Part shown: positions 2,849 to 51,039 of the stretch, one piece after another | Numbering within the stretch: the stretch's first letter is position 1 | Layout of the letters: every line of letters begins with the position of its first letter | IMG/VR virus record: IMGVR_UViG_3300021256_000062 | Coordinates: 94,918-158,917 of that record | Length of the DNA stretch: 64,000 bases | Strand: one strand, 5' to 3' | Source of the DNA: a virus | Taxonomy: Duplodnaviria; Caudoviricetes | Notes under the pieces: model-generated | The model's input: the letters and a program-made list of their open reading frames with translations, nothing else | What the model was told of the DNA's origin: nothing | The model's database searches: none | Program-made: the position numbers and the translations under genes

Positions 2849-2948
2849 AAGACAGTGTTCTTTGCTTGGGATTTGAACCCAAAATTGATTTCTTGGAAGG
2901 AAATTGACTTACCGTTTGTCTAGCATTTAGAATTGCTGTAACTGTCTT
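2849..2948 (-). ncRNA. Clamp RNA 1 enclosing a mini tRNA-Gly(TCC)-like cloverleaf
   Basis: AAGACAGT-TACAGCAA ... ACTGTCTT; interior D arm GAC-AAACGGTAA-GTC, anticodon arm ATTTC-CTTCCAA-GAAAT, T arm TTGGG-TTCAAAT-CCCAA; no full acceptor or CCA. Confidence 0.75.
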
Positions 2949-3033: not shown

Positions 3034-3413
3034 TGGTGGAGATGAGGGGAATTGAACCCCTGTATTGAAATCAGTCCATTTGACTTTCTACATATTATCT
3101 TATTTATGTCCTCGTACAAATTACATCATCAGTAAATAAGCAAATTAGAAATGTAATTCAATTAGTTTCTATGGTCATTTCGATTTCCTTTCGACTACTA
3201 ATAAATGCAAAGTTCATCTACCCCTATATCGATTAACTACTAATTAGTATAGGTATCCTAATTTTCGTTTCCTAATTTATCTAATTAGGCAAATGCATAT
3301 GCTCTAGGAGCATTGTTTAAAGTTGCGGTTATTTAAACCTCGACGTTGATAACCCAGTCTACTGGATATGCTTATCATCTTTCATAACTCCAAGCGAATC
3401 CATAAACATCCCC
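3034..3413 (-). ncRNA. ssrA: tmRNA; tag peptide ATLNNAPRAYAFA* (3285-3326)
   Basis: 5' GGGGATG..GGATTCG, 3' GGGGTTCAATTCCCCTCATCTCCACCA with G3-U70; resume context AATAACC-GCA. Confidence 0.93.
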
Positions 3414-4213: not shown

Positions 4214-4289
4214 TGGAGGTCTCTCTCGGATTTGAACCGAGGTTCATGGTGTTGCAGACCATTGCCTTAATCCACTTGGCTAAGAGACC
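4214..4289 (-). tRNA. tRNA-Cys(GCA)
   Basis: ATGGT-CTGCAAC-ACCAT, U73, CCA. Confidence 0.93.
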
Positions 4290-8185: not shown

Positions 8186-8302
8186 AAGACTCATTTATCA
8201 TGGGTTTTGCAGGACTTGAACCTGCTACTTTCAAATTAGAAGTTTGACGCTCTACCAAATGAGCTAAAAATCCTAGAATGGAGTATTTGCAGTATGAGTC
8301 TT
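8186..8302 (-). ncRNA. Clamp RNA 4 enclosing a near-complete tRNA-Arg(TCT)-like cloverleaf (8201-8273)
   Basis: AAGACTC-ATACTGCAA ... GAGTCTT-G; GGATTTT/AAAACCC acceptor with one mismatch, TCAAA-CTTCTAA-TTTGA, no discriminator+CCA tail. Confidence 0.8.
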
Positions 8303-8531: not shown

Positions 8532-8607
8532 TGGTGGAGCTAGTCGGGTTCGAACCGACGACTTTCAACTTGCAAAGCTGACACTCTCCCAACTGAGTTA
8601 TAGCCCC
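8532..8607 (-). tRNA. tRNA-Ala(TGC)
   Basis: GGGGCTA start with G3-U70, TCAGC-TTTGCAA-GTTGA, CCA. Confidence 0.95.
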
Positions 8608-8694
8608 AAACATGTCCAAGCTTAAAGTACGAGGACAGAATCCTACTAGAAGATAACTTAATATATTATACAATAATTGTTTTTAATTTTATAC

Positions 8695-8758
8695 AAGACT
8701 CTATTTTGGGTATTATGATTAAAAGTCATAGCCTAAAATAAATTGCGGTATAAGTCTT
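8695..8758 (-). ncRNA. Clamp RNA 5 displaying a Lys(TTT) anticodon stem-loop
   Basis: AAGACT-TATACCGCAA ... AGTCTT-G; TATTTTAGG/CCCAAAATA stem capped by TATGA-CTTTTAA-TCATA. Confidence 0.8.
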
Positions 8759-8792
8759 TTTAAATTGTTCTTTATATTATTTTAAATGATTC

Positions 8793-8898
8793 AAGACACT
8801 TCTTTTTGCGTATACCATTTCGCCACTTAGCACATGCTGCTGAGATAGGATTCGAACCTATAATAATCTAAAAGATTAAGGTTTGCTGTATGTGTCTT
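8793..8898 (-). ncRNA. Clamp RNA 6: YrlA-like permuted tRNA (variable arm, T arm, loop-closed acceptor, D arm)
   Basis: AAGACAC-ATACAGCAA ... GTGTCTT-G; ATAGG-TTCGAAT-CCTAT, CTCAGCA-GCATG-TGCTAAG, TG-GCGAAATGGTATACGC. Confidence 0.8.
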
Positions 8899-8932
8899 TA
8901 TATCAGTAAAATTATTTATTTTATAAGTAATC

Positions 8933-9072
8933 AAGACATTCTTGTTGATTTTAAGTGTGATACCATTACACCACTCCCCTATATAATTAAATATATGGCA
9001 GGGGAGGAATGGATTCGAACCATCATCACTGGAGTTGCAGTCCCTATCATTTAGAATTGCAGTAAATGTCTT
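8933..9072 (-). ncRNA. Clamp RNA 7: circularly permuted tRNA with Cys(GCA) anticodon arm and internal CCA
   Basis: AAGACAT-TTACTGCAA ... ATGTCTT-G; order GGA-CTGCAAC-TCC, GATGG-TTCGAAT-CCATT, CTCCCCT-G-CCA, AT hairpin, AGGGGAG-TG-GTG-TAATGGTAT-CAC. Confidence 0.8.
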
Positions 9073-9081
9073 TATTTTATT

Positions 9082-10713
9082 TTATAACCAAGAAGGTTTA
9101 TCCATCTTTGATATAGTATTTCCAGACCACTTAATTCCAGCTTTAGTGACATTCTCTAAATATGGAATTGAATCATATGTCTTAACATCTAATTCCTTAA
9201 CTAGTGCTAAGAATGGGTCAGTCTCACCATTTAACACCATATTTAAAGTATTAACTGAGAATCCTGATACTAATACAACACCATTTTCATTTTGTGTTAA
9301 TGGAATAGTGTTTGTTCTAGAACATACATTCCAGAATACTAATTTAGGTAATTTATATCCTGCACTAGCATATTTTGTTTGCGCATTTCTAAATACATTA
9401 CTATCACTATTAAAATGATTATAACCATATGAAGAATCAAATTCCATATCTGAAATAATTAAAATTTGTTCAGGCATATCTTCAGGTTTAACCTTACCTT
9501 CAACAGCTGTCTTTAAGATTAAATTGAATACATTCTCAATATTAGTGTTTGAACAATCACTATAACAAAGACAAGTTTGTAATTTAGAATGTAATGATTG
9601 ACACATAGATAAATCTACTAATTTAGCTTGAGATGAGAAAGTAATAAACTTATCTTTAAATGTATCATTTAATCTTTCTGAACAATAAATTGCCAATGCA
9701 GTTGATACATCTAATGCGGTTGTATTACCAGAACCTACTTTTGACGTCATTGAACCTGAACCATCTCTAACAACGATTGTGTTATTTAAACCATCTTTTT
9801 GTTTTAGGTTCTTCCATAATTGTTCTAATGCTTCATCATAATCAGTTAAATGTGAATACCATCCATCACAATTAAAGTATTTAGTAACAATTTCGTGTGG
9901 GAAGTTAACTGAAGAATTAATCTTTACTTCCTTACCATCCTTATCTACACCTACTCTTAATGCAGCTAAGAAATCTCTACGTCTTTCTTCATCGTGTCTT
10001 AAGAAAGCATCCTTATACTTTAAGTTTGCTTTTGATGGAACTTGATTATAATCAATCTTACTCCATTCATTTGCAGATGTATAAGTTTCAATTACCTTTA
10101 AGTATGCTCTTAACTTTGATAAAAGTTGTCTATACTCTTTAGATGTTGCACCAAATGATTTGATGAAAATCTTTGCCAATTTCTTTGTTTTAGGAGATGA
10201 TGCATTTTCAGATGGCATCCACTTAGCTAATAATGAAATTGGTTTGTTATTATTCATATTAGTGAAATCTTGTTTTAATTGACTTAAAACAGTTTGTACC
10301 ATAAAATCTTGATATTCAGTACCAATGAAAACAAATAAGTCATCATATCTACCAAATTCAACTATTTGAGTCTTAATTAAGTCTTTAACAATTTCATCTT
10401 TATTCTTGAAATCTGAAACCTTAATTAAATGATTTAAGGCTACTCTAAATAATCTTCTTTCACCTAATCCTTCTCTTACTCCTCTTACATAGAATAAGAA
10501 TTTTAATAAGTATCTAGCATCACCTTGTTCAGCTAATACTAAATCAATATCCTTACAAATATCAGCATCTGTAAGTTTACGATATGAAGTTACCTTGAAA
10601 TTCATATCTAGTAATGGGTGGAAAGTAGTCTTATATCCCTCCATACCATTTTCAGTAATTGATACATTGTTTTGTACCTTTTTCATAGTTCCATAAAAAT
10701 CCATATTATCCAT
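9082..10713 (-). CDS. DUF2828-family protein (TROVE/Ro60-like helical domain + C-terminal vWA)
   Basis: TENG..., FYVRGVREGLGERRLF, FGRYDDL, LLAKWMPSE, IDYNQVPSKA, MIDAS VRDGSGSM, IISDMEFD, FWNV, VSGFS. Confidence 0.85.
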   Translation of the reverse strand: MDNMDFYGTMKKVQNNVSITENGMEGYKTTFHPLLDMNFKVTSYRKLTDADICKDIDLVLAEQGDARYLLKFLFYVRGVREGLGERRLFRVALNHLIKVSDFKNKDEIVKDLIKTQIVEFGRYDDLFVFIGTEYQDFMVQTVLSQLKQDFTNMNNNKPISLLAKWMPSENASSPKTKKLAKIFIKSFGATSKEYRQLLSKLRAYLKVIETYTSANEWSKIDYNQVPSKANLKYKDAFLRHDEERRRDFLAALRVGVDKDGKEVKINSSVNFPHEIVTKYFNCDGWYSHLTDYDEALEQLWKNLKQKDGLNNTIVVRDGSGSMTSKVGSGNTTALDVSTALAIYCSERLNDTFKDKFITFSSQAKLVDLSMCQSLHSKLQTCLCYSDCSNTNIENVFNLILKTAVEGKVKPEDMPEQILIISDMEFDSSYGYNHFNSDSNVFRNAQTKYASAGYKLPKLVFWNVCSRTNTIPLTQNENGVVLVSGFSVNTLNMVLNGETDPFLALVKELDVKTYDSIPYLENVTKAGIKWSGNTISKMDKPSWL

Positions 10714-10720
10714 CCTTTCT

Positions 10721-10782
10721 AGACACTACCATGTATATCCAACAACCATTAGACTTTACACTATTTGTTGCTGTATGTGTCT
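10721..10782 (-). promoter_or_regulatory. Clamp RNA 8 in the 5' leader of the DUF2828 gene, abutting its RBS
   Basis: AGACAC-ATACAGCAA ... GTGTCT immediately followed by AGAAAGG-ATG. Confidence 0.75.
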
Positions 10783-10802
10783 TATGTATTTTTACAAGTT
10801 CT

Positions 10803-10831
10803 ATTATACCATTATTTAATTACTTTGTCAA
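10803..10831 (-). promoter_or_regulatory. sigmaA-type promoter of the DUF2828/clamp-RNA operon
   Basis: TTGACA-17-TATAAT. Confidence 0.85.
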
Positions 10832-10864: not shown

Positions 10865-12030
10865 TAAGATGTCCATGTAATACCTACTCATAGGTGTTAA
10901 CAACTCCTTAGGACTGAAGGGGAAGTGGTTTACATCCTTCGTATACTCCTCAAAGTATACCCGCTATTAATTAACTAAATTAAGGCTCAATATTATCTAT
11001 GGATAATATTGGAATAACTTGTGCTATTCTTTTACGCACTTAACCGCACGATTTATCTGTCGCCATCAAGGTTTATGGGTGCGACCCTGAGTTTGCTCTC
11101 TTCTACGCTGTATTCAGACTTCGCACTTATGGTAGCGAGGCACCAATAATTTTAACTGAACAAGGGTCGTTGTATTTCACATTCAGACCCTCAAAACTGT
11201 CAAGTGAATGATATTCTAGGTGTCATTCCCACTATTAATTTGTATTCAACAAGATACTCATCTAAGAGTACCTTGTGTTTTTGAATGTTTTCAGGCTAAC
11301 ATACAACCTTTCGCTAATCTAATAGCACTTTGTGAGGCTCAACCTCACTTGTCTTGAATAATAATTTGGTTGGACTTGAACCAACAATGGCTTTTAACCG
11401 ATAGGCTATGTGTTGCCAATCCCTATCTCATCGTTTCACCCATAAGGCATCTTTTTATTGGATTGAACGCTTGTGATTTCCCTCATTAATCTACAAATTA
11501 TTATTTTATATCAAGAGTTCCCTTTGCTAACGTGTCAGGTGGGTAGACCTATAATGTCGCAGCTCACATCTGCTAGACATTTACTTTTCGAACTGCTTAA
11601 GTCAGTTATTCCTACTTCGCAACTCAGTCCATTACGCTGTTTAATTTTTTCTACATTATAGGCCAAACGGGTTTAAATGCTACTTATGGTTCTCACATAA
11701 TCTTTCCGAAACTAAGTCGGTGCTTCGCATACTAGGAATAGTAAACATAATGTAAACTATTACGCTATTTGATGTATATCCCACATGATTAGGAGTTCTC
11801 ATTTAAATTGTAGTCACTATATAGTTTTCCTTCTAAGATTTCATTTTATATAGCGAAAAAATCAAATCCGCTAGTGTGTGATTAAAACCACATCCACCGC
11901 CACCTTATTTTTCTAAATAAGGAAAATATTTGCTCTTATTCTATGTTCTTTATATCGAGCTAACTTTTAGGAGTTTTTCATCCAATATATTTCAAGGACT
12001 AAAGTTAATTGAAATAATTAAGTTTCTCTA
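10865..12030 (-). ncRNA. Large (~1.15 kb) structured ncRNA candidate (GOLLD/ROOL-like class, family unassigned); ends approximate
   Basis: No credible ORF, raised GC, many hairpins and long-range complementarities, embedded tRNA-elbow domain, TGTATAAT -10 at ~12043-12050. Confidence 0.7.
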
Positions 12031-12785: not shown

Positions 12786-15725
12786 TTATTTTAAATCTTT
12801 ATCTAAAATTATATCATCATCAGTTAAATCATCTAAATCTAGATAATCATCAACATCAATTTCTTCAATTTCATCATCATCTTCATCTTTAATAATTTTA
12901 ACATTATTTAAATCATAATTATAAATTAAAGTACCATCAATATCATCATTGTACATTGAAATCTCTAAAGTATTACCTTCAGTAGATAGTATGATATCTG
13001 AACTTCCAATATAATCTTCTAATTTTCTCATTAATTCATCATAGAATTCATCATAATCATAAAATTCCCAACCATCTAAATATCTGATTGCCTTTTCTAC
13101 ATTATCATTAAATTTATTTTGTGCATAATTTCTTTCAATTCTTTTTTGTTTCTCTTGGTCATAAGTCTTTATAACTAACACAGGGAACTTTGTATCCCAT
13201 CCAAATAAATCCCCAGCTACCATCATTCTATGAAGACCCTCTTGTCCTGGATAATATGATAAATCAAGAACTGCAATAGGGAATTTCTTCTTCTTATCAG
13301 TGATAACTGTCTTAAGATAATCCAATGTCTTCTTATCATATTCTCTTTGTTGTTTTAAGTCGTTTGCAGTAACTTTCTTATGTTTCTTACTACTGAACAT
13401 ATCTGCACAAGCCTCATAATATTCTTGTGGAGACATTTGAACTATTTCACCAACTAAATTCTTTTTATTCTTATAATAATCAACATCATTACCTAATAAT
13501 AAATCTTTCCATGAACCAGTGGTACCTGTAGTTGATGTATCAAATATATCACTACCATTTACATCTCCTGTACCATAGTCAAAATCATCACTTTCCTTTA
13601 ATTTAGTTCTAAAGTTTTCAATGAACTCTAAACGTTTAGGATTTCCACCTAATACATCAAATAATTTAAAGTTTTTAATGTCTTGATATCTTGAATAGAT
13701 ATATCCATCATCAGTTTTATATTTAAAGTTATAATCATCTCCTACCACATCATATATCTCAAATTCATTAGTATGGTATGAATCAGGACAATAAATAGCA
13801 CATACTTGGTTCTTATCAAAATCATTTACTAAATCAGTACTTAAGTAACCATTTTGATATGCTGCATTTTTCATATCAGTATGAACACAATCATATGCAT
13901 TTGCAACTAAATATAAATTACCTTCAATATATAATCTTTGTGGTTCAGTTTTTGATAATAGGAAATTCTTAACTTGATATGGACTTTCAAACATATATAC
14001 ATCAAAAGCATCTTCATCAAATTTAACCATTTCAGTAAGTGATTCTTTTTTATCCCAATATGAATAGGCAACAGCTAATCTTTGTTTTTGATTTGGATAT
14101 TCTTTTTCAGTTGCACTCATAAATCTTGATATGAAATCTTTTTTAGTTTCATTATCTTTAGGATAAATTTCCAATAATTTACTTTCATTTATGTTATTAC
14201 TATTACTTGGATTCTTATTATCTATTAATTTTATTTGGTTAGGGTAAAAGGTAATGATTTGAGTATCAATACCTGCATTCATCATAGAATTGTATAAAAT
14301 AATTCCATCATAATCTCCCTCGCCTTGAACAGCGTCTATTACATCATAATATGATGTATCATTACTAAAATCATAAGCACCTAATAATGTGAAATACAAA
14401 TCTGGTGTATTTATTCCAAATTCATTGACTATATCTAATTCATTTTCAAAATAATCTTCACCATTGTCGTGTGCTTCTACAAAGTCCCATAACTTATCAT
14501 AGTCTATAATAAAAGGCTTTTCTAAATTTAGATAACATTCTTTTATCTTATTTCCATAGCCTAAAGAGAATTGTTTATTTGGAGTAAAAAATGTAGCATA
14601 TTTAAAAACATCGAAATCTTTATTTGTGGAATGATAACAAACTAATAATCTACCTTGATTATCTCTTACTTTACTATTCTTAAAAAACTCTACTTGCTCA
14701 TTACTAAGTGGGTTTCCTTCGCTATCTACTTCTTGTGATAAGTCTTCATTAAGTTCTTCATTTACAACACAATTATCAAAATCAACCAAACCATAAGTAA
14801 TAACACCACCTTCATCAGCCTTAATGCCGTCATATCCTAGAGATTGAATTAATACATAAAATGGGTATTCTGATGTTATATCGTAAATGTAATTTGAACT
14901 TTCTAACCTAAAACCAAATTGTGAAAGGAATTGTTTTAATTGTGTAGGTGTCATCTCAATTAACTTACAAAAGTTAAGAAATTCTTTGCTGTATTTACCT
15001 TTTACATTCCATATAGATGAACCTATATACCCTACATCTAGCAATTCACATTTAGAAAAATCTATATCTTTACTAAAGACCTTATTACCATATTCTTGAG
15101 CATATTTTTTATTTGGTGTAAACCAAGTAAGTCTATCTTTAGAATTAATTAATTTATCACTATCTTGACCATGATAGACAAGTTCTTCATCTAAACTTGT
15201 ATGTTCACCTACTATGTCAAAGTATCTATCTTCCCACTCATCAAATTGTTTTTCTAACTCATCATAATCTATTTCAGGTATTTCAGTTCTAACAGGTTTT
15301 TTTATCCATCCAGTATATAGAGAATAAACACCATTTGATTTAGCTGGTTGGTTTACATCTTCTACATATAATTCAACTTCTCTACCCTTTACTTTTATTT
15401 CATATTTACTGTTAAATAATGATTTATAGGCATTACAAAGTAATTGCATTATCTTTATGTCATCAGTAGTTCCTAAATCTGCTACTATATGTAAATCAAT
15501 ATCAGACATGTCAGTATAGTTATAATTTGCACTTGAACCTAATAATCTTATATCAACTACATCAAGAGTTAATCCATCTTCTTTTAGGTCATCTAAAAAA
15601 CTATCAGCTATATCTAATAATCTTTCTTTTACATCATCTCTTAATTCATCATCTTCATTCCATAATTTAGGATTAAGTGTATCATTAACTTTTATTTCTT
15701 CATTTAAATTTTTATCTATTTTCAT
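12786..15725 (-). CDS. Polyvalent protein: N-half of a nucleotidyltransferase + 2 ART-PolyVal-like + unknown module + ParB-like domain
   Basis: LNPKLW, GSSANYNY..SDIDLH, ELYVED, GVYS..W; YHG/YHS..FT...A..YG..GYDGI; EGLHR; LxE[ESD] linkers. Confidence 0.75.
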   Translation of the reverse strand: MKIDKNLNEEIKVNDTLNPKLWNEDDELRDDVKERLLDIADSFLDDLKEDGLTLDVVDIRLLGSSANYNYTDMSDIDLHIVADLGTTDDIKIMQLLCNAYKSLFNSKYEIKVKGREVELYVEDVNQPAKSNGVYSLYTGWIKKPVRTEIPEIDYDELEKQFDEWEDRYFDIVGEHTSLDEELVYHGQDSDKLINSKDRLTWFTPNKKYAQEYGNKVFSKDIDFSKCELLDVGYIGSSIWNVKGKYSKEFLNFCKLIEMTPTQLKQFLSQFGFRLESSNYIYDITSEYPFYVLIQSLGYDGIKADEGGVITYGLVDFDNCVVNEELNEDLSQEVDSEGNPLSNEQVEFFKNSKVRDNQGRLLVCYHSTNKDFDVFKYATFFTPNKQFSLGYGNKIKECYLNLEKPFIIDYDKLWDFVEAHDNGEDYFENELDIVNEFGINTPDLYFTLLGAYDFSNDTSYYDVIDAVQGEGDYDGIILYNSMMNAGIDTQIITFYPNQIKLIDNKNPSNSNNINESKLLEIYPKDNETKKDFISRFMSATEKEYPNQKQRLAVAYSYWDKKESLTEMVKFDEDAFDVYMFESPYQVKNFLLSKTEPQRLYIEGNLYLVANAYDCVHTDMKNAAYQNGYLSTDLVNDFDKNQVCAIYCPDSYHTNEFEIYDVVGDDYNFKYKTDDGYIYSRYQDIKNFKLFDVLGGNPKRLEFIENFRTKLKESDDFDYGTGDVNGSDIFDTSTTGTTGSWKDLLLGNDVDYYKNKKNLVGEIVQMSPQEYYEACADMFSSKKHKKVTANDLKQQREYDKKTLDYLKTVITDKKKKFPIAVLDLSYYPGQEGLHRMMVAGDLFGWDTKFPVLVIKTYDQEKQKRIERNYAQNKFNDNVEKAIRYLDGWEFYDYDEFYDELMRKLEDYIGSSDIILSTEGNTLEISMYNDDIDGTLIYNYDLNNVKIIKDEDDDEIEEIDVDDYLDLDDLTDDDIILDKDLK

Positions 15726-49664: not shown

Positions 49665-49815
49665 AGTCTCTATTAAATCATATAGTACTTACTTAAGAGC
49701 CAAACTCGACTGAGATTCTAGGTTATGCTAGTTTGCTCAGTCTCTTCCTCATTAAAAATTTGTTATCAATCTTCTTTTAAATATTTTTAAATAATTAAGA
49801 TTGCTGTGTGAGACT
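49665..49815 (-). ncRNA. Clamp RNA 9, between the RNA ligase and HPr-like genes
   Basis: AGTCTC-ACACAGCAA ... GAGACT-AG; internal GACTGAG/CTCAGTC hairpin; TGTATAAT just upstream. Confidence 0.6.
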
Positions 49816-49848: not shown

Positions 49849-51039
49849 TTATAAATTATGTTTCATTAAATATTCTGGAGATACTGCCTTGAAGGATAGC
49901 TTACCATCCTTACCTCTAAATACAATACCCTCTCTTAGAACATCCTTATTAACAACTGACTTATCAGTTGCAATCTTTAGTAACTCGTCAACTGTATCTG
50001 GTAGAATAAAGTTCTCATCTAGAATTGGAACCCAAGGGATTGGTGTATCCCATGACTCAAGTAACTTTTTAGCTGTTATTGAATCCCATCTACCATTTTT
50101 AGAATCCTTGAAGTTGAATGCTGCAAAGTGATGACCCTTTAACTTTAAAGGATTACCTTGCCATCCTTCTCCATATGATTCTCCCTGGATACATACCCAA
50201 TCTAAATCTTTATTCTCATTAAGATATTTTTTAAGTTGATTTTCTACATCATATCTAGTTGCCATTTCCCAATAGATATTATCATTACCTTGGTATGTAT
50301 GTTCATTTGAATCATTCCATAATCTAATATTTCTAGAGCATACATAGAATTCAAATTTATTCTTTCCCTTTCTTACTAGTAAGAAAGTAGTAGATGTACC
50401 ATCAATCTTTTCAGTTGCAATTAATGGTGTCTTATCTTGTAGTAAGTAAGGCATATTCTGAATTCTCTCTTCATCAGTTTTAGATACAAATTCAGTTGGG
50501 AATGCTTTCTTCATATCCTTATGACCTTTTTTCATTCCTCTTAAGAATAACCATCTAAAGAATTTATATCTCATTAACCATTTAACTAACTTATTATTAA
50601 AGAACTTCTTATGTTTAGCTTTGTACTGTTTAATAGCTTGTTCTCTAACATCAGATTTTCTATAGTTATCTTCTACTACTGAATATGTTACTCCTAACTT
50701 TTCAGTTAAATCAGTTAATATTTCAGTATTAGGGTCTATACCTAATACATCTAAAGGTAAAATTAGTCCTTGTGATATAACATTAAATTTACCTAATTTA
50801 TAAGTTTTAATCTTATAATGTTTATTAGCAAGGAATTCAAATGCAGGATTTGATTCTGGTACCTTTGAATCAATTTCAAAGAATGCACATTTATCTCCTG
50901 GTTTAAATTCTCCTTTTTTAGTAATTAATGTCCAACCTAGTACATGTGCTAATTCAATATTATCTGCACCTTCAATAGGTTCTATTGAATCAACTACTTG
51001 AACATAGGCCAACATTCTTTTTCCATCTTTATCTAACAA
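49849..51039 (-). CDS. RNA ligase (DRB0094/Rnl2-like)
   Basis: IEPIEGADNIE, FFEIDS, SQGL, KTDEERIQN, TEKIDGTS, QGE, REGIV, SFKAVS. Confidence 0.9.
   Translation of the reverse strand: MLDKDGKRMLAYVQVVDSIEPIEGADNIELAHVLGWTLITKKGEFKPGDKCAFFEIDSKVPESNPAFEFLANKHYKIKTYKLGKFNVISQGLILPLDVLGIDPNTEILTDLTEKLGVTYSVVEDNYRKSDVREQAIKQYKAKHKKFFNNKLVKWLMRYKFFRWLFLRGMKKGHKDMKKAFPTEFVSKTDEERIQNMPYLLQDKTPLIATEKIDGTSTTFLLVRKGKNKFEFYVCSRNIRLWNDSNEHTYQGNDNIYWEMATRYDVENQLKKYLNENKDLDWVCIQGESYGEGWQGNPLKLKGHHFAAFNFKDSKNGRWDSITAKKLLESWDTPIPWVPILDENFILPDTVDELLKIATDKSVVNKDVLREGIVFRGKDGKLSFKAVSPEYLMKHNL

What the first reader, a model, noticed from the sequence alone, without database searches (positions are those of the whole stretch)
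8933..9072. Circularly permuted tRNA with internal CCA inside a clamp
Seen: the transcript order is Cys(GCA) anticodon arm, T arm, 3' acceptor strand CTCCCCT-G-CCA, AT hairpin linker, 5' acceptor strand AGGGGAG, D arm. The break lies between the D and anticodon arms and is closed by the clamp. The acceptor and G73 resemble this phage's tRNA-Trp (AGGGG.../CCCCT-G-CCA) while the anticodon is Cys. Known: permuted tRNA genes occur in some algae and archaea and mature through circular intermediates. Inference: either a decoy, or a precursor cut by RNase P and a 3' nuclease to give a two-piece, possibly chargeable RNA tethered to the Ro-like protein.
Basis: partly seen in the sequence, partly recalled or inferred. 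Interest (0 to 1): 0.85.

Follow-up and report, generated by a model that had tools for sequence, protein, structure and literature searches.

The report
Permuted tRNA mimic on phage Y-RNA handle
The 140-nt element is real and conserved: it is a phage Y-RNA-like small RNA of the YrlA type, with a protein-binding "handle" that carries a complete, circularly permuted tRNA look-alike whose acceptor end has an encoded CCA, lying just after the gene for a Ro60-shaped protein; this is a new variant of a known kind, not a working tRNA gene.

Summary
Observation confirmed. On the minus strand, 9072..8933 reads: 8-bp closing stem, unpaired ACWGCAA motif, anticodon-like hairpin (7-nt loop, GCA), 4-nt variable loop, T arm, 7-nt acceptor 3' strand + G-CCA, AU linker, acceptor 5' strand, U8, D arm, closing stem.

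An ortholog in a related phage (neighbouring gene 73% aa identical) keeps the stem, motif and acceptor+GCCA 100% identical. Its D stem, T stem, anticodon stem and the 15:48 tertiary pair change by compensation, and its anticodon becomes GUC.

The upstream gene (DUF2828/DUF7788) models as a Ro60 ring: the top 13 PDB fold matches are all Ro60. The stem+ACWGCAA handle occurs 231 times on the gene strand against 11 on the other strand in 80 DUF2828 phage loci. It also flanks a mycobacteriophage RNA that Rfam's YrlA model detects.

So E1 is a YrlA-class Y-like RNA. The literature already calls YrlA "circularly permuted tRNAs", and M. smegmatis YrlA is cut by RNase P and receives CCA.

What differs from described YrlAs: a full anticodon arm, a genome-encoded NCCA (recurrent in this family, always with U at -1), a tRNA-Trp-like acceptor, a different handle motif, and no match to Rfam YrlA.

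Processing and charging remain untested. This scan had already noted the handle family on this same genome.

The parts
9065..9072 (-). Handle (clamp) 5' strand, 8 nt, pairs with 8933-8940
   Evidence: Identical in the L010 ortholog. The stem covaries among paralogs and across phages.
9057..9064 (-). Unpaired handle motif (family consensus NNACWGCAA), the presumed site bound by the Ro60-like protein
   Evidence: The pattern occurs 8 times in the window, all on the minus strand, against 0.8 expected. In 80 DUF2828 loci it occurs 231 times on the gene strand and 11 times on the opposite strand. Protein binding is inferred, not shown.
9046..9056 (-). 5' connector, shared with the paralog at 2948-2849
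   Evidence: 7 of 11 nt identical in the ortholog.
9029..9045 (-). Anticodon-like arm: 5-position stem (3 standard pairs) and 7-nt loop with U33, GCA, A37
   Evidence: The ortholog keeps a 4-bp stem and a 7-nt loop but only 6 of 17 nt are identical and the anticodon is GUC.
9025..9028 (-). 4-nt variable loop; its last base (U48) matches A15 of the D loop
   Evidence: The 15:48 pair is A:U here and G:C in L010 and L101; it covaries (pair columns 51/114: CG 2, UA 2).
9007..9024 (-). T arm: 5-bp stem with one bulged U (9008) and a UUCGAAU loop
   Evidence: Pair 50:64 is A-U here, G-U in L010 and L101, and U-A in L099.
8996..9006 (-). Acceptor 3' strand (7 nt) followed by G73 and CCA
   Evidence: 11 of 11 nt identical in the ortholog. 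The same acceptor+GCCA is present in L099, L100, L101, L106 and L108; all but L101 show the handle.
8981..8995 (-). AU-rich linker that closes the acceptor stem, ending in U(-1)
   Evidence: Length and sequence vary in relatives.
8972..8980 (-). Acceptor 5' strand (7 nt) plus U8 and G9
   Evidence: 8 of 9 nt identical in the ortholog.
8957..8971 (-). D arm with A14 and G18-G19
   Evidence: the Rfam tRNA model aligns this half. Pair 12:23 is G-C here and U-A in L010.
8941..8956 (-). 3' connector with a run conserved in the ortholog
   Evidence: 12 of 16 nt identical.
8933..8940 (-). Handle 3' strand
   Evidence: 8 of 8 nt identical in the ortholog.
9082..10713 (-). 543-aa DUF2828/DUF7788 protein with a Ro60-like fold (helical-repeat ring plus vWA domain); E1 starts 9 nt after its stop codon
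   Evidence: Pfam; PHROG 850 'RNA-binding protein'; AF2 model pLDDT 85, pTM 0.85; the top 13 Foldseek PDB matches are all Ro60.
10803..10831 (-). Sigma-70-type promoter (12 of 12 match, extended -10), the probable start of the operon transcript
   Evidence: No terminator-like site is predicted between it and 8100.
10718..10785 (-). Cargo-less handle RNA in the leader of the DUF2828 gene
8793..8898 (-). E2, a second handle RNA with the classical YrlA layout (T arm, acceptor closed by a 5-nt loop, D arm; no CCA)

Best explanation
E1 is a Y-RNA-like noncoding RNA of the YrlA type and belongs to a phage Ro60-like RNP system.

Its two ends pair into a short handle: an 8-bp stem plus a one-sided unpaired ACWGCAA motif. 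By analogy with Ro60 and Y RNAs, this handle is where the neighbouring DUF2828/DUF7788 Ro60-fold protein binds (inferred).

The handle carries a complete tRNA body in circularly permuted order. The chain enters at the D/anticodon junction (position 26/27). The acceptor stem is closed by an AU-rich linker that follows an encoded G73-CCA.

E1 is probably co-transcribed with the protein gene from the promoter at 10831-10803 (inferred from layout; no terminator predicted).

The tRNA-shaped module presumably presents tRNA features to a tRNA-binding factor: the elbow, a tRNA-Trp-like acceptor and a swappable anticodon loop. That factor could be a processing or repair enzyme, an exonuclease, or a host tRNA-targeting nuclease, which would make E1 a tether or a bait (inferred).

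I give about 40% odds that RNase P cuts at U(-1)/A(+1) and that 3' trimming exposes the CCA. The product would be a two-piece RNA held together by the acceptor stem and the handle, as shown experimentally for M. smegmatis YrlA.
For: Sequence anatomy.

Partner protein: it models as Ro60. AF2 pLDDT is 85. Foldseek's top 13 PDB hits are all Ro60, including phage phiLo Ro60, aligned at full length with E down to 6e-8.

Handle family tied to the gene:
- 75 of 80 IMG/VR DUF2828 loci carry it, 231 copies on the gene strand against 11 on the opposite strand.
- The stems covary.
- It is also found in Tsamsa, PK-3, Enterococcus and Staphylococcus phages.
- In Mycobacterium phage Kingsolomon one handle RNA is hit by Rfam YrlA at 37.9 bits, E 1e-5.

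The T arm / closed acceptor / D arm order inside handles recurs in at least 14 elements, all on the gene strand.

Ortholog L010:
- Handle, motif and acceptor+GCCA are 43 of 44 nt identical, while the gene's third codon positions are only 66% identical.
- Compensatory changes occur in the D, T and anticodon stems and in the 15:48 pair.

RNase P substrate features: 7-bp acceptor, NCCA and U(-1).
- NCCA directly after a 7-bp acceptor recurs in independent elements with other acceptor sequences: L029, L041, L052, L066, L017.
- It is kept while the acceptor covaries between positional orthologs.

Precedent: YrlA and the RNase P cut plus CCA addition in M. smegmatis (PMC4201824); YrlA described as 'circularly permuted tRNAs' (10.1101/312249).

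RNA-repair/processing context: the phage encodes a PolyA_pol-family (CCA-adding-type) enzyme and an RNA ligase, and a ninth handle RNA lies just downstream of the ligase gene.
Against: - There are no expression, binding or cleavage data.
- Rfam's YrlA model does not hit E1 or E2 even at E up to 10.
- The YrlA GNCGAA-type motif is replaced by ACWGCAA.
- The protein has no detectable sequence match to Pfam TROVE or to Ro60 chains. The link to Ro60 is structural only, with TM about 0.5.
- The thermodynamic MFE (-38.2 kcal/mol) prefers another fold over the cloverleaf-in-clamp (-25 to -28 kcal/mol).
- The anticodon stem has only 3 standard pairs and the T stem has a bulge.
- The encoded NCCA could be a relic of birth from tandem tRNA genes rather than a processing signal.
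Confidence: 0.8

Rival explanations
1. E1 is a true permuted tRNA gene. The transcript would be circularised or ligated at the clamp and opened at the acceptor, giving a conventional decoding tRNA-Cys, as in red algae and some archaea.
For: All four arms, a 7-nt anticodon loop identical to that of the phage tRNA-Cys, and an encoded CCA are present. ARAGORN accepts the un-permuted sequence. The phage encodes an RNA ligase.
Against: - The ortholog has anticodon GUC on the same acceptor, so no amino-acid identity is conserved.
- G73 is conserved, whereas established knowledge is that CysRS needs U73.
- The clamp with its ACWGCAA motif is shared with cargo-less RNAs and with non-permuted cargos, so it is a family handle and not a splice junction.
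- The junction would leave about 27 extra nucleotides between the D and anticodon arms.
- A normal tRNA-Cys already exists at 4214-4289.
Confidence: 0.04
2. E1 is a decaying remnant of two adjacent tRNA genes (the 3' two-thirds of one plus the 5' third of the next) with no function of its own.
For: - The proposed origin of YrlA RNAs is dimeric tRNA transcripts (10.1101/312249).
- NCCA followed by a short AU spacer and U(-1) is what tRNA-tRNA junctions in this array look like.
- My generic scan also picks up real tRNA junctions.
Against: - The acceptor strands pair 7 of 7 and are 100% conserved in a phage whose neighbouring gene is only 66% identical at third codon positions.
- The stems change by compensation.
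- The same layout inside the same handle recurs in many phages, on the gene strand only.
Confidence: 0.05
3. The clamps are DNA-level or processing signals rather than parts of a stable RNP. Examples would be terminal repeats of a mobile tRNA cassette, or cleavage signals that punctuate the long tRNA-array transcript.
For: - The clamps flank tRNA-sized units throughout the tRNA array.
- Cargo differs between positional orthologs: the anticodon arm is only 35% identical, as if swapped.
Against: - Terminal repeats recognised by a protein should be conserved, but these covary.
- The ACWGCAA motif lies on one arm only and is always on the transcribed strand.
- The elements cluster around one protein gene of Ro60 fold, including in its own leader.
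- A 7-8 bp stem is shorter than known RNase III substrates (established knowledge).
Confidence: 0.08

Closest known systems
Mycobacterium smegmatis YrlA (Chen et al. 2014, PMC4201824)
   Same: - Encoded next to a Ro60-type gene.
- RNA ends form the protein-binding stem.
- T arm, 7-bp acceptor-like stem closed by a loop, then D arm.
- Cut by RNase P and bearing CCA in vivo, giving a two-piece RNA bound to Rsr.
   Different: - There the CA is added after cleavage; in E1 the GCCA is genome-encoded.
- Per 10.1101/312249, YrlA lacks an anticodon loop and its anticodon stem runs into the Ro-binding stem. E1 has a separate anticodon arm plus the handle.
- The handle motif differs: ACWGCAA against GNCGAA.
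- The partner is a DUF2828 protein, not a Pfam TROVE protein.
Salmonella Typhimurium YrlA, crystal structure 6CU1 (10.1101/312249); Rfam RF02553
   Same: Shares the L-shape-forming nucleotides: U8, A14, G18-G19, the 15:48 pair, and the T loop with G53-C61. The paper describes these RNAs as resembling circularly permuted tRNAs.
   Different: - 6-bp closed acceptor, no CCA, no anticodon loop, not cut by RNase P.
- The Rfam model built on these RNAs gives no hit on E1.
Mycobacteriophage YrlA-like RNAs beside 'Ro-like RNA binding protein' genes (e.g. phage Kingsolomon)
   Same: - Same protein family (DUF2828+DUF7788).
- Same handle (stem plus ACAGCAA) and the same position just downstream of the gene, in a tandem of three handle RNAs.
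   Different: - The cargo is a classical YrlA: 6-bp acceptor closed by a 9-nt loop, no CCA, no anticodon hairpin.
- It is detected by Rfam YrlA at 37.9 bits, whereas E1 is not.
Thermus phage phiLo Ro60 with Yrl1/Yrl2 (PMC12135203)
   Same: A phage-encoded Ro60-fold protein (among the top fold matches) with two small RNAs encoded beside it.
   Different: The phiLo Yrls have a CGAA-motif bulge and are not described as tRNA-like. The protein belongs to a different sequence family.
Circularly permuted tmRNA genes giving two-piece tmRNA (alpha-proteobacteria, some cyanobacteria; from my own knowledge, not checked here)
   Same: A bacterial precedent for a permuted tRNA-like gene. The CCA-bearing 3' acceptor strand lies upstream of the 5' strand, the spacer is excised, and the two-piece product is aminoacylated.
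   Different: tmRNA carries an mRNA-like module, works with SmpB, and has an alanine-identity acceptor. It has no Ro60 partner and no handle.
Permuted tRNA genes of Cyanidioschyzon merolae and some archaea
   Same: The 3' half is encoded upstream of the 5' half, and the linker at the acceptor end is removed by RNase P and a 3' nuclease.
   Different: - They mature through a bulge-helix-bulge junction and a circular intermediate into ordinary decoding tRNAs.
- E1's junction is the family handle, its anticodon is not conserved, and no such pathway is known in bacteria.

Membership tests
YrlA-type bacterial/phage Y RNA | Encoded adjacent to a Ro60 (Rsr) homolog | tested here: met
   E1 starts 9 nt after the stop of the DUF2828/DUF7788 gene. 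The AF2 model's top 13 PDB fold matches are all Ro60. Caveat: there is no Pfam TROVE or Ro60 sequence match.
YrlA-type bacterial/phage Y RNA | 5' and 3' ends pair into a conserved stem that serves as the Ro60-binding module | tested here: inconclusive
   The end-to-end stem is present, covaries and is tied to the gene. Binding could not be tested with these tools.
YrlA-type bacterial/phage Y RNA | tRNA-like module in the order T arm, closed acceptor stem, D arm, with the tRNA tertiary nucleotides | tested here: met
   U8, A14, G18-G19 and the T loop are present, and the 15:48 pair covaries.
YrlA-type bacterial/phage Y RNA | Conserved GNCGAAN0-1G motif on the 5' strand of the Ro-binding module (PMC4201824) | tested here: not met
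   The handle carries NNACWGCAA instead.
YrlA-type bacterial/phage Y RNA | Score at or above the gathering threshold of Rfam RF02553 (69 bits) | tested here: not met
   No YrlA hit at E up to 10 on 8600-9150. The best hits in the genome score at most 18.8 bits and lie at tRNA junctions, not at E1. A mycobacteriophage relative with the same handle scores 37.9 bits.
Permuted tRNA genes (algal/archaeal type) | 3' half upstream of the 5' half, with all four arms and CCA or a discriminator base | tested here: met
Permuted tRNA genes (algal/archaeal type) | Termini form a bulge-helix-bulge junction specific to that tRNA, which is cut and ligated into a circular intermediate | tested here: not met
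   The junction is an 8-bp stem plus a one-sided 8-9 nt loop. The same junction is found on cargo-less and non-permuted family members. Circular intermediates are not testable here.
Permuted tRNA genes (algal/archaeal type) | Product is a decoding tRNA with a conserved anticodon and matching identity elements | tested here: not met
   GCA here and GUC in the ortholog, on an identical G73 acceptor.
Canonical tRNA gene | Recognised in native order by tRNA finders | tested here: not met
   ARAGORN and Rfam tRNA (at gathering threshold) do not call it. The only sub-threshold tRNA hit (20.4 bits) joins E1's D half to E2's T half.
Ro60/TROVE protein (the partner) | Helical-repeat ring plus C-terminal vWA/MIDAS domain | tested here: met
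   Foldseek full-length matches to 1yvr, 9kop and 2nvo with probability 1.00; weak Pfam VWA_2 match.
Ro60/TROVE protein (the partner) | Pfam TROVE domain match | tested here: not met
   Only DUF2828 and DUF7788 match.

The most novel reading that the evidence does not exclude
E1 is matured by RNase P and 3' trimming into a two-piece RNA with a free CCA. This RNA would be aminoacylated through its conserved tRNA-Trp-like acceptor (A1-U72, G2-G5, G73) while held on the Ro60-like ring by its handle. The result would be a protein-tethered, chargeable tRNA whose anticodon arm is a swappable cassette (GCA here, GUC in the sister phage). It could serve as a sensor or bait for host enzymes that attack or read tRNAs during infection.
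Probability: 0.15. Interest if true: 0.85.

Novelty: new variant of a known kind. Interest (0 to 1): 0.6.

Why it matters
YrlA RNAs are known tRNA mimics, but what their tRNA module is for remains open.

This phage variant carries the features that canonical YrlA lacks and that would be needed to interact with the translation and tRNA-processing machinery. These are an anticodon stem-loop, a 7-bp acceptor with a conserved Trp-type discriminator, and an encoded CCA with U(-1). It therefore makes directly testable whether a Y RNA can be cleaved, CCA-ended and charged.

It also helps define a large, apparently undescribed RNA family: the stem+ACWGCAA handle, with several copies per genome. This family partners the DUF2828 'RNA-binding protein' found in hundreds of phages, including Felix O1-like, Listeria, Staphylococcus, Enterococcus, Bacillus and mycobacteriophages. 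One member of that protein family was reported to counter a bacterial defence (PMC11482910).

In practical terms, at least two 'tRNA genes' in this array (8201-8273 and 2858-2929) are cargos of such RNAs. They lack CCA while all other tRNAs in the array encode it, so tRNA counts in such phages are inflated.

Tried and rejected
- The search for related loci with the single protein found nothing. A 5-protein alignment was needed to reach relatives.
- Sequence searches of the protein against PDB chains, with the single sequence and with a profile, gave no Ro60 hit. Only the fold comparison did.
- Single-sequence MFE folding of E1 does not give the cloverleaf, and E2's fold is no better than shuffles. 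I rejected the MFE alternative because its helices break in the ortholog.
- I considered that the loop CUGCAA might be a second copy of the handle motif. I rejected this because the ortholog's loop differs.
- I considered that the hairpin might be a class-II variable arm, with the handle standing in for the anticodon stem. The 5+7+5 hairpin followed by a 4-5 nt spacer before the T stem fits an anticodon arm better, though this is not excluded.
- My first two parsers for YrlA-like cargos were too strict, and the clamp-independent one also caught real tRNA-tRNA junctions. Counts are therefore not used as statistics.
- A MAFFT alignment of 15 cargos misaligned the acceptor and D strands because linker lengths vary, so I built no covariance model from it.
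- DNA pattern scans of IMG/VR found only one other phage with E1. The metagenome scan added L099, L100, L101, L106 and L108, plus five unrelated GC-rich chance matches.
- There is no RtcB in the phage.
- Literature searches for DUF2828, for phage Ro60 with tRNA-like RNAs, and for permuted tRNAs in phages found no description of this handle family.
Full report
**1. What is in the sequence**

- an 8-nt arm (9072-9065) complementary to the last 8 nt (8940-8933);
- an unpaired motif matching NNACWGCAA;
- an 11-nt connector;
- a hairpin with a 7-nt loop, CUGCAAC (9040-9034);
- four nucleotides of variable loop;
- a T arm with a UUCGAAU loop;
- a 7-nt strand followed by G-CCA;
- 15 AU-only nucleotides;
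- the complementary 7-nt strand, then U-G;
- a D arm with A14 and G18-G19;
- a 16-nt connector, and the closing arm.

Three details need correcting. The anticodon-like stem has only three standard pairs. The T stem has one bulged U (9008). The AU 'hairpin' is not conserved as a hairpin in relatives.

ARAGORN and Rfam's tRNA model do not call the element in its native order. The one sub-threshold tRNA hit (20.4 bits) joins E1's D half to the T half of the next element.

When the two halves are swapped in silico, ARAGORN calls a tRNA-Cys(gca) in 15 of 18 junction choices.

The loop is the same 7 nt as that of the phage's real tRNA-Cys. The acceptor stem with G73-CCA differs from that of the phage tRNA-Trp at a single pair (6:67). 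tRNA-Trp is the best match among the 28 tRNAs for both halves.

**2. Context**

The window is part of a 158.9-kb virus record. It has 27 ARAGORN tRNA calls plus a tmRNA, all on the minus strand.

E1 begins 9 nt after the stop of a 543-aa gene (10713..9082) that matches Pfam DUF2828 and DUF7788 and PHROG 850 'RNA-binding protein'. HMMER finds no link to TROVE or to Ro60 chains.

An AlphaFold2 model built on 30 homologs has pLDDT 85 and pTM 0.85. Its 13 best Foldseek matches in the PDB are all Ro60: Xenopus, human, Deinococcus Rsr and Thermus phage phiLo. They align over the full length with probability 1.00 and E down to 6e-8. The 'Ro-like' label is therefore justified by fold.

A perfect sigma-70-type promoter lies at 10831-10803. 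No terminator-like site is predicted down to 8100. The gene, E1, E2 and the following elements are probably one transcript; this is an inference.

**3. The clamp is a family handle**

The pattern AAGACAYNTACWGCAA (up to 2 mismatches) occurs 8 times in the window against 0.8 expected, and always on the minus strand.

Requiring a 7-bp stem plus NNACNGCAA finds handle RNAs at 10783, 9072 (E1), 8898 (E2), 8758, 8302, 4636, 4446 and 2948. Their arms differ between copies but stay complementary.

The cargos differ:
- none or a simple hairpin (10783, 8758, 4446);
- a tRNA-like body in normal order (8302 encloses 'tRNA-Arg' 8201-8273; 2948 encloses the Rfam-only 'tRNA' 2858-2929; both lack CCA, while every other tRNA in the array encodes it);
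- a tRNA-like body in permuted order (E1, E2).

The same handle lies beside DUF2828 genes in Bacillus phages Tsamsa and PK-3, an Enterococcus Schiekvirus and a Staphylococcus Sextaecvirus.

In 80 IMG/VR loci retrieved with a DUF2828 alignment, 75 have the handle on the gene strand. The totals are 231 copies on the gene strand against 11 on the opposite strand.

In Mycobacterium phage Kingsolomon the 'Ro-like RNA binding protein' is also DUF2828+DUF7788. Three handle RNAs follow it. The middle one is detected by Rfam's YrlA model at 37.9 bits, E 1e-5, below the 69-bit gathering score.

This ties the handle family to the YrlA RNAs that Chen et al. reported beside Ro60 homologs in bacteria and phages (PMC4201824).

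**4. E1 is conserved and its arms covary**

One IMG/VR phage (locus L010) has a DUF2828 protein 73% identical to this one, with 66% identity at third codon positions. It has an ortholog of E1 at L010:5331-5470.

Identity by part:
- handle 5' strand plus motif: 16/16
- acceptor 3' strand plus GCCA: 11/11
- acceptor 5' strand plus U8-N9: 8/9
- handle 3' strand: 8/8
- anticodon arm: 6/17
- D arm: 9/15

Despite that divergence, the ortholog's hairpin is again a 4-bp stem with a 7-nt loop carrying U33 and A37, now with GUC. The D stem pair 12:23 changes from G-C to U-A, and pair 13:22 from U·U to C-G. T-stem pair 50:64 changes from A-U to G-U. The tertiary 15:48 pair changes from A:U to G:C. The bulged U of the T stem is absent.

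Of 28 proposed pairs, 27 are standard pairs in the ortholog, with 4 double compensatory changes. The single exception is a gap-placement artefact. Of the 42 pairs in the thermodynamic MFE fold, 9 break and none are compensated.

Metagenomic sequences L099 and L101 were then added. On that 4-sequence alignment 89.9% of cells pair, against 40-58% when partners are slid by 1-3 columns. Eight pairs change on both sides, a value reached by 4 of 500 shuffles.

Energy alone is a caveat: the MFE is -38.2 kcal/mol against -25 to -28 kcal/mol for the cloverleaf-in-clamp. I give the comparative evidence more weight.

**5. The encoded CCA is a recurrent, maintained feature**

Among handle RNAs with permuted cargo, N-CCA directly follows a 7-bp acceptor in several independent elements that have different acceptor sequences:
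- L029 (CCCA)
- L041:3294 (UCCA)
- L052 (GCCA)
- L066 (ACCA)
- L017:375 (ACCA, with a 38-nt linker)

. By base composition the chance of CCA at that position is about 1%.

The element just after the gene in L010 (acceptor followed by A-CCA) has positional orthologs L100, L106 and L108 (G-CCA). These differ from it by double compensatory changes at pairs 1:72 and 5:68 and at N73, yet all keep CCA.

Every NCCA-bearing element I examined has U at -1. Only about half of the CCA-less elements do. U(-1) is the nucleotide bacterial RNase P prefers, which is established knowledge.

The exact E1 acceptor plus GCCA also occurs in three different cargo types in other metagenomic phage contigs. That search required the motif, so I do not count it as enrichment.

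These facts fit either selection for a processing or recognition signal, or repeated birth from tRNA-tRNA junctions. The conservation in the E1 and L100 lineages favours selection.

**6. Comparison with what is known**

Chen et al. 2014 (PMC4201824) defined YrlA as:
- a Ro60-bound RNA whose ends form the Ro-binding stem;
- with an effector module that mimics the T arm, acceptor stem (closed by a loop) and D arm.

M. smegmatis YrlA has a 7-bp acceptor. It is cut by RNase P in vitro at the predicted site. In vivo it exists as two Rsr-bound pieces, the 5' one ending in CCA.

[quoted passage not shown] Phage Ro60 homologs with Y-like RNAs are known from mycobacteriophages, CcrColossus, Bacillus phage G and Thermus phage phiLo (PMC12135203). 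A preprint reports that Bas63 gp130, a Ro60-like protein encoded next to the tRNA genes, counters the Ppl defence, and guesses that some of the annotated tRNAs are Y RNAs (PMC11482910).

E1 therefore belongs to a known kind. It differs in five respects:
- It has a separate anticodon arm, so the chain break is at position 26/27 rather than in the anticodon loop.
- It has a genome-encoded G73-CCA on a tRNA-Trp-like acceptor.
- Its anticodon arm is hypervariable, less conserved than silent codon positions.
- Its handle motif is ACWGCAA rather than GNCGAA.
- It does not match Rfam RF02553.

I found no paper describing the ACWGCAA handle or RNAs associated with DUF2828.

**7. How it most likely works**

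Shown:
- the anatomy of E1;
- conservation and covariation of its arms;
- the Ro60 fold of the neighbouring protein;
- the genomic association between the handle and that protein family.

Inferred:
- The protein binds the handle.
- The tRNA-shaped module recruits or distracts a tRNA-recognising factor.
- With about 40% odds, RNase P and 3' exonucleases convert E1 into a two-piece, CCA-ended RNA.

The wider context fits tRNA and RNA maintenance or conflict:
- E1 lies in a tRNA/tmRNA array.
- Other handle RNAs display bare anticodon arms.
- The phage encodes a PolyA_pol-family (CCA-adding-type) enzyme.
- It encodes an RNA ligase with a ninth handle RNA immediately downstream.
- It has no RtcB.

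Whether E1 is charged is open. Its anticodon does not match its acceptor identity, so efficient charging by an anticodon-reading synthetase seems unlikely.

**8. Verdict**

E1 is not a tRNA-Cys gene and not a decaying remnant. It is a new variant of the YrlA class of tRNA-mimicking Y RNAs, within a large and apparently undescribed handle family that partners DUF2828 Ro60-like proteins in phages. Other notes of this scan had already flagged the handle family on this same genome. I re-derived it independently and extended it to 80 other loci and to the mycobacteriophage YrlA link.

Noticed in passing
window 8186-8302 and 2849-2948 (minus strand): The 'tRNA-Arg(tct)' at 8201-8273 (ARAGORN; Rfam 68.5 bits) and the Rfam-only tRNA at 2858-2929 lie inside handles. 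They lack an encoded CCA, whereas every other tRNA of the array has one. They are probably Y-like RNA cargos rather than working tRNAs.
   Followed up: partly
window 49665-49815 (minus strand), next to the ORF at 49849-51039: A ninth handle RNA (stem plus ACACAGCAA) with its own -10-like box lies immediately downstream of a 396-aa RNA ligase gene (Pfam PF09414, E 7e-22).
   Followed up: partly
G000:C1:10434-10799 (outside the window): The phage encodes a PolyA_pol-family nucleotidyltransferase (CCA-adding-enzyme type; 441-aa open frame, E 4e-43).
   Followed up: no
window 10865-12030 (minus strand): A stretch of about 1.15 kb without ORFs, GC-richer than its flanks, lies just upstream of the DUF2828 promoter. 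The only Rfam match there is a split tRNA-like hit spanning 140 nt at 11361-11500 (30.5 bits, E 4.5e-4). It could be a large structured RNA or an interrupted tRNA.
   Followed up: partly
L010:5143-5306; also L100, L106, L108: Sister phages carry an extra handle RNA directly after the DUF2828 stop codon, and the window lacks it. It has a permuted tRNA-like cargo with a non-canonical T loop, N-CCA and a long linker. Its acceptor covaries between phages.
   Followed up: partly
L101:1154-1324 (minus strand): A close relative of the L010 version of E1 (same T arm, D arm, acceptor and GCCA) sits behind its own promoter-like box. It has no recognisable ACWGCAA handle.
   Followed up: no
L001 (Bacillus phage Tsamsa) 4210-4535 (minus strand): About 330 nt of GC-richer sequence without ORFs lies between two handle RNAs upstream of the Tsamsa DUF2828 gene. 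It may be a structured RNA.
   Followed up: no
window 12786-15725 (minus strand): A 979-aa protein has an ART-PolyVal ADP-ribosyltransferase domain (E 1e-13) and a weak nucleotidyltransferase match. It lies upstream of the DUF2828 operon.
   Followed up: no
window 3034-3413 (minus strand): A phage-encoded tmRNA (tag ATLNNAPRAYAFA) lies within the tRNA array, next to tRNA-Trp and the 2948 handle RNA.
   Followed up: no
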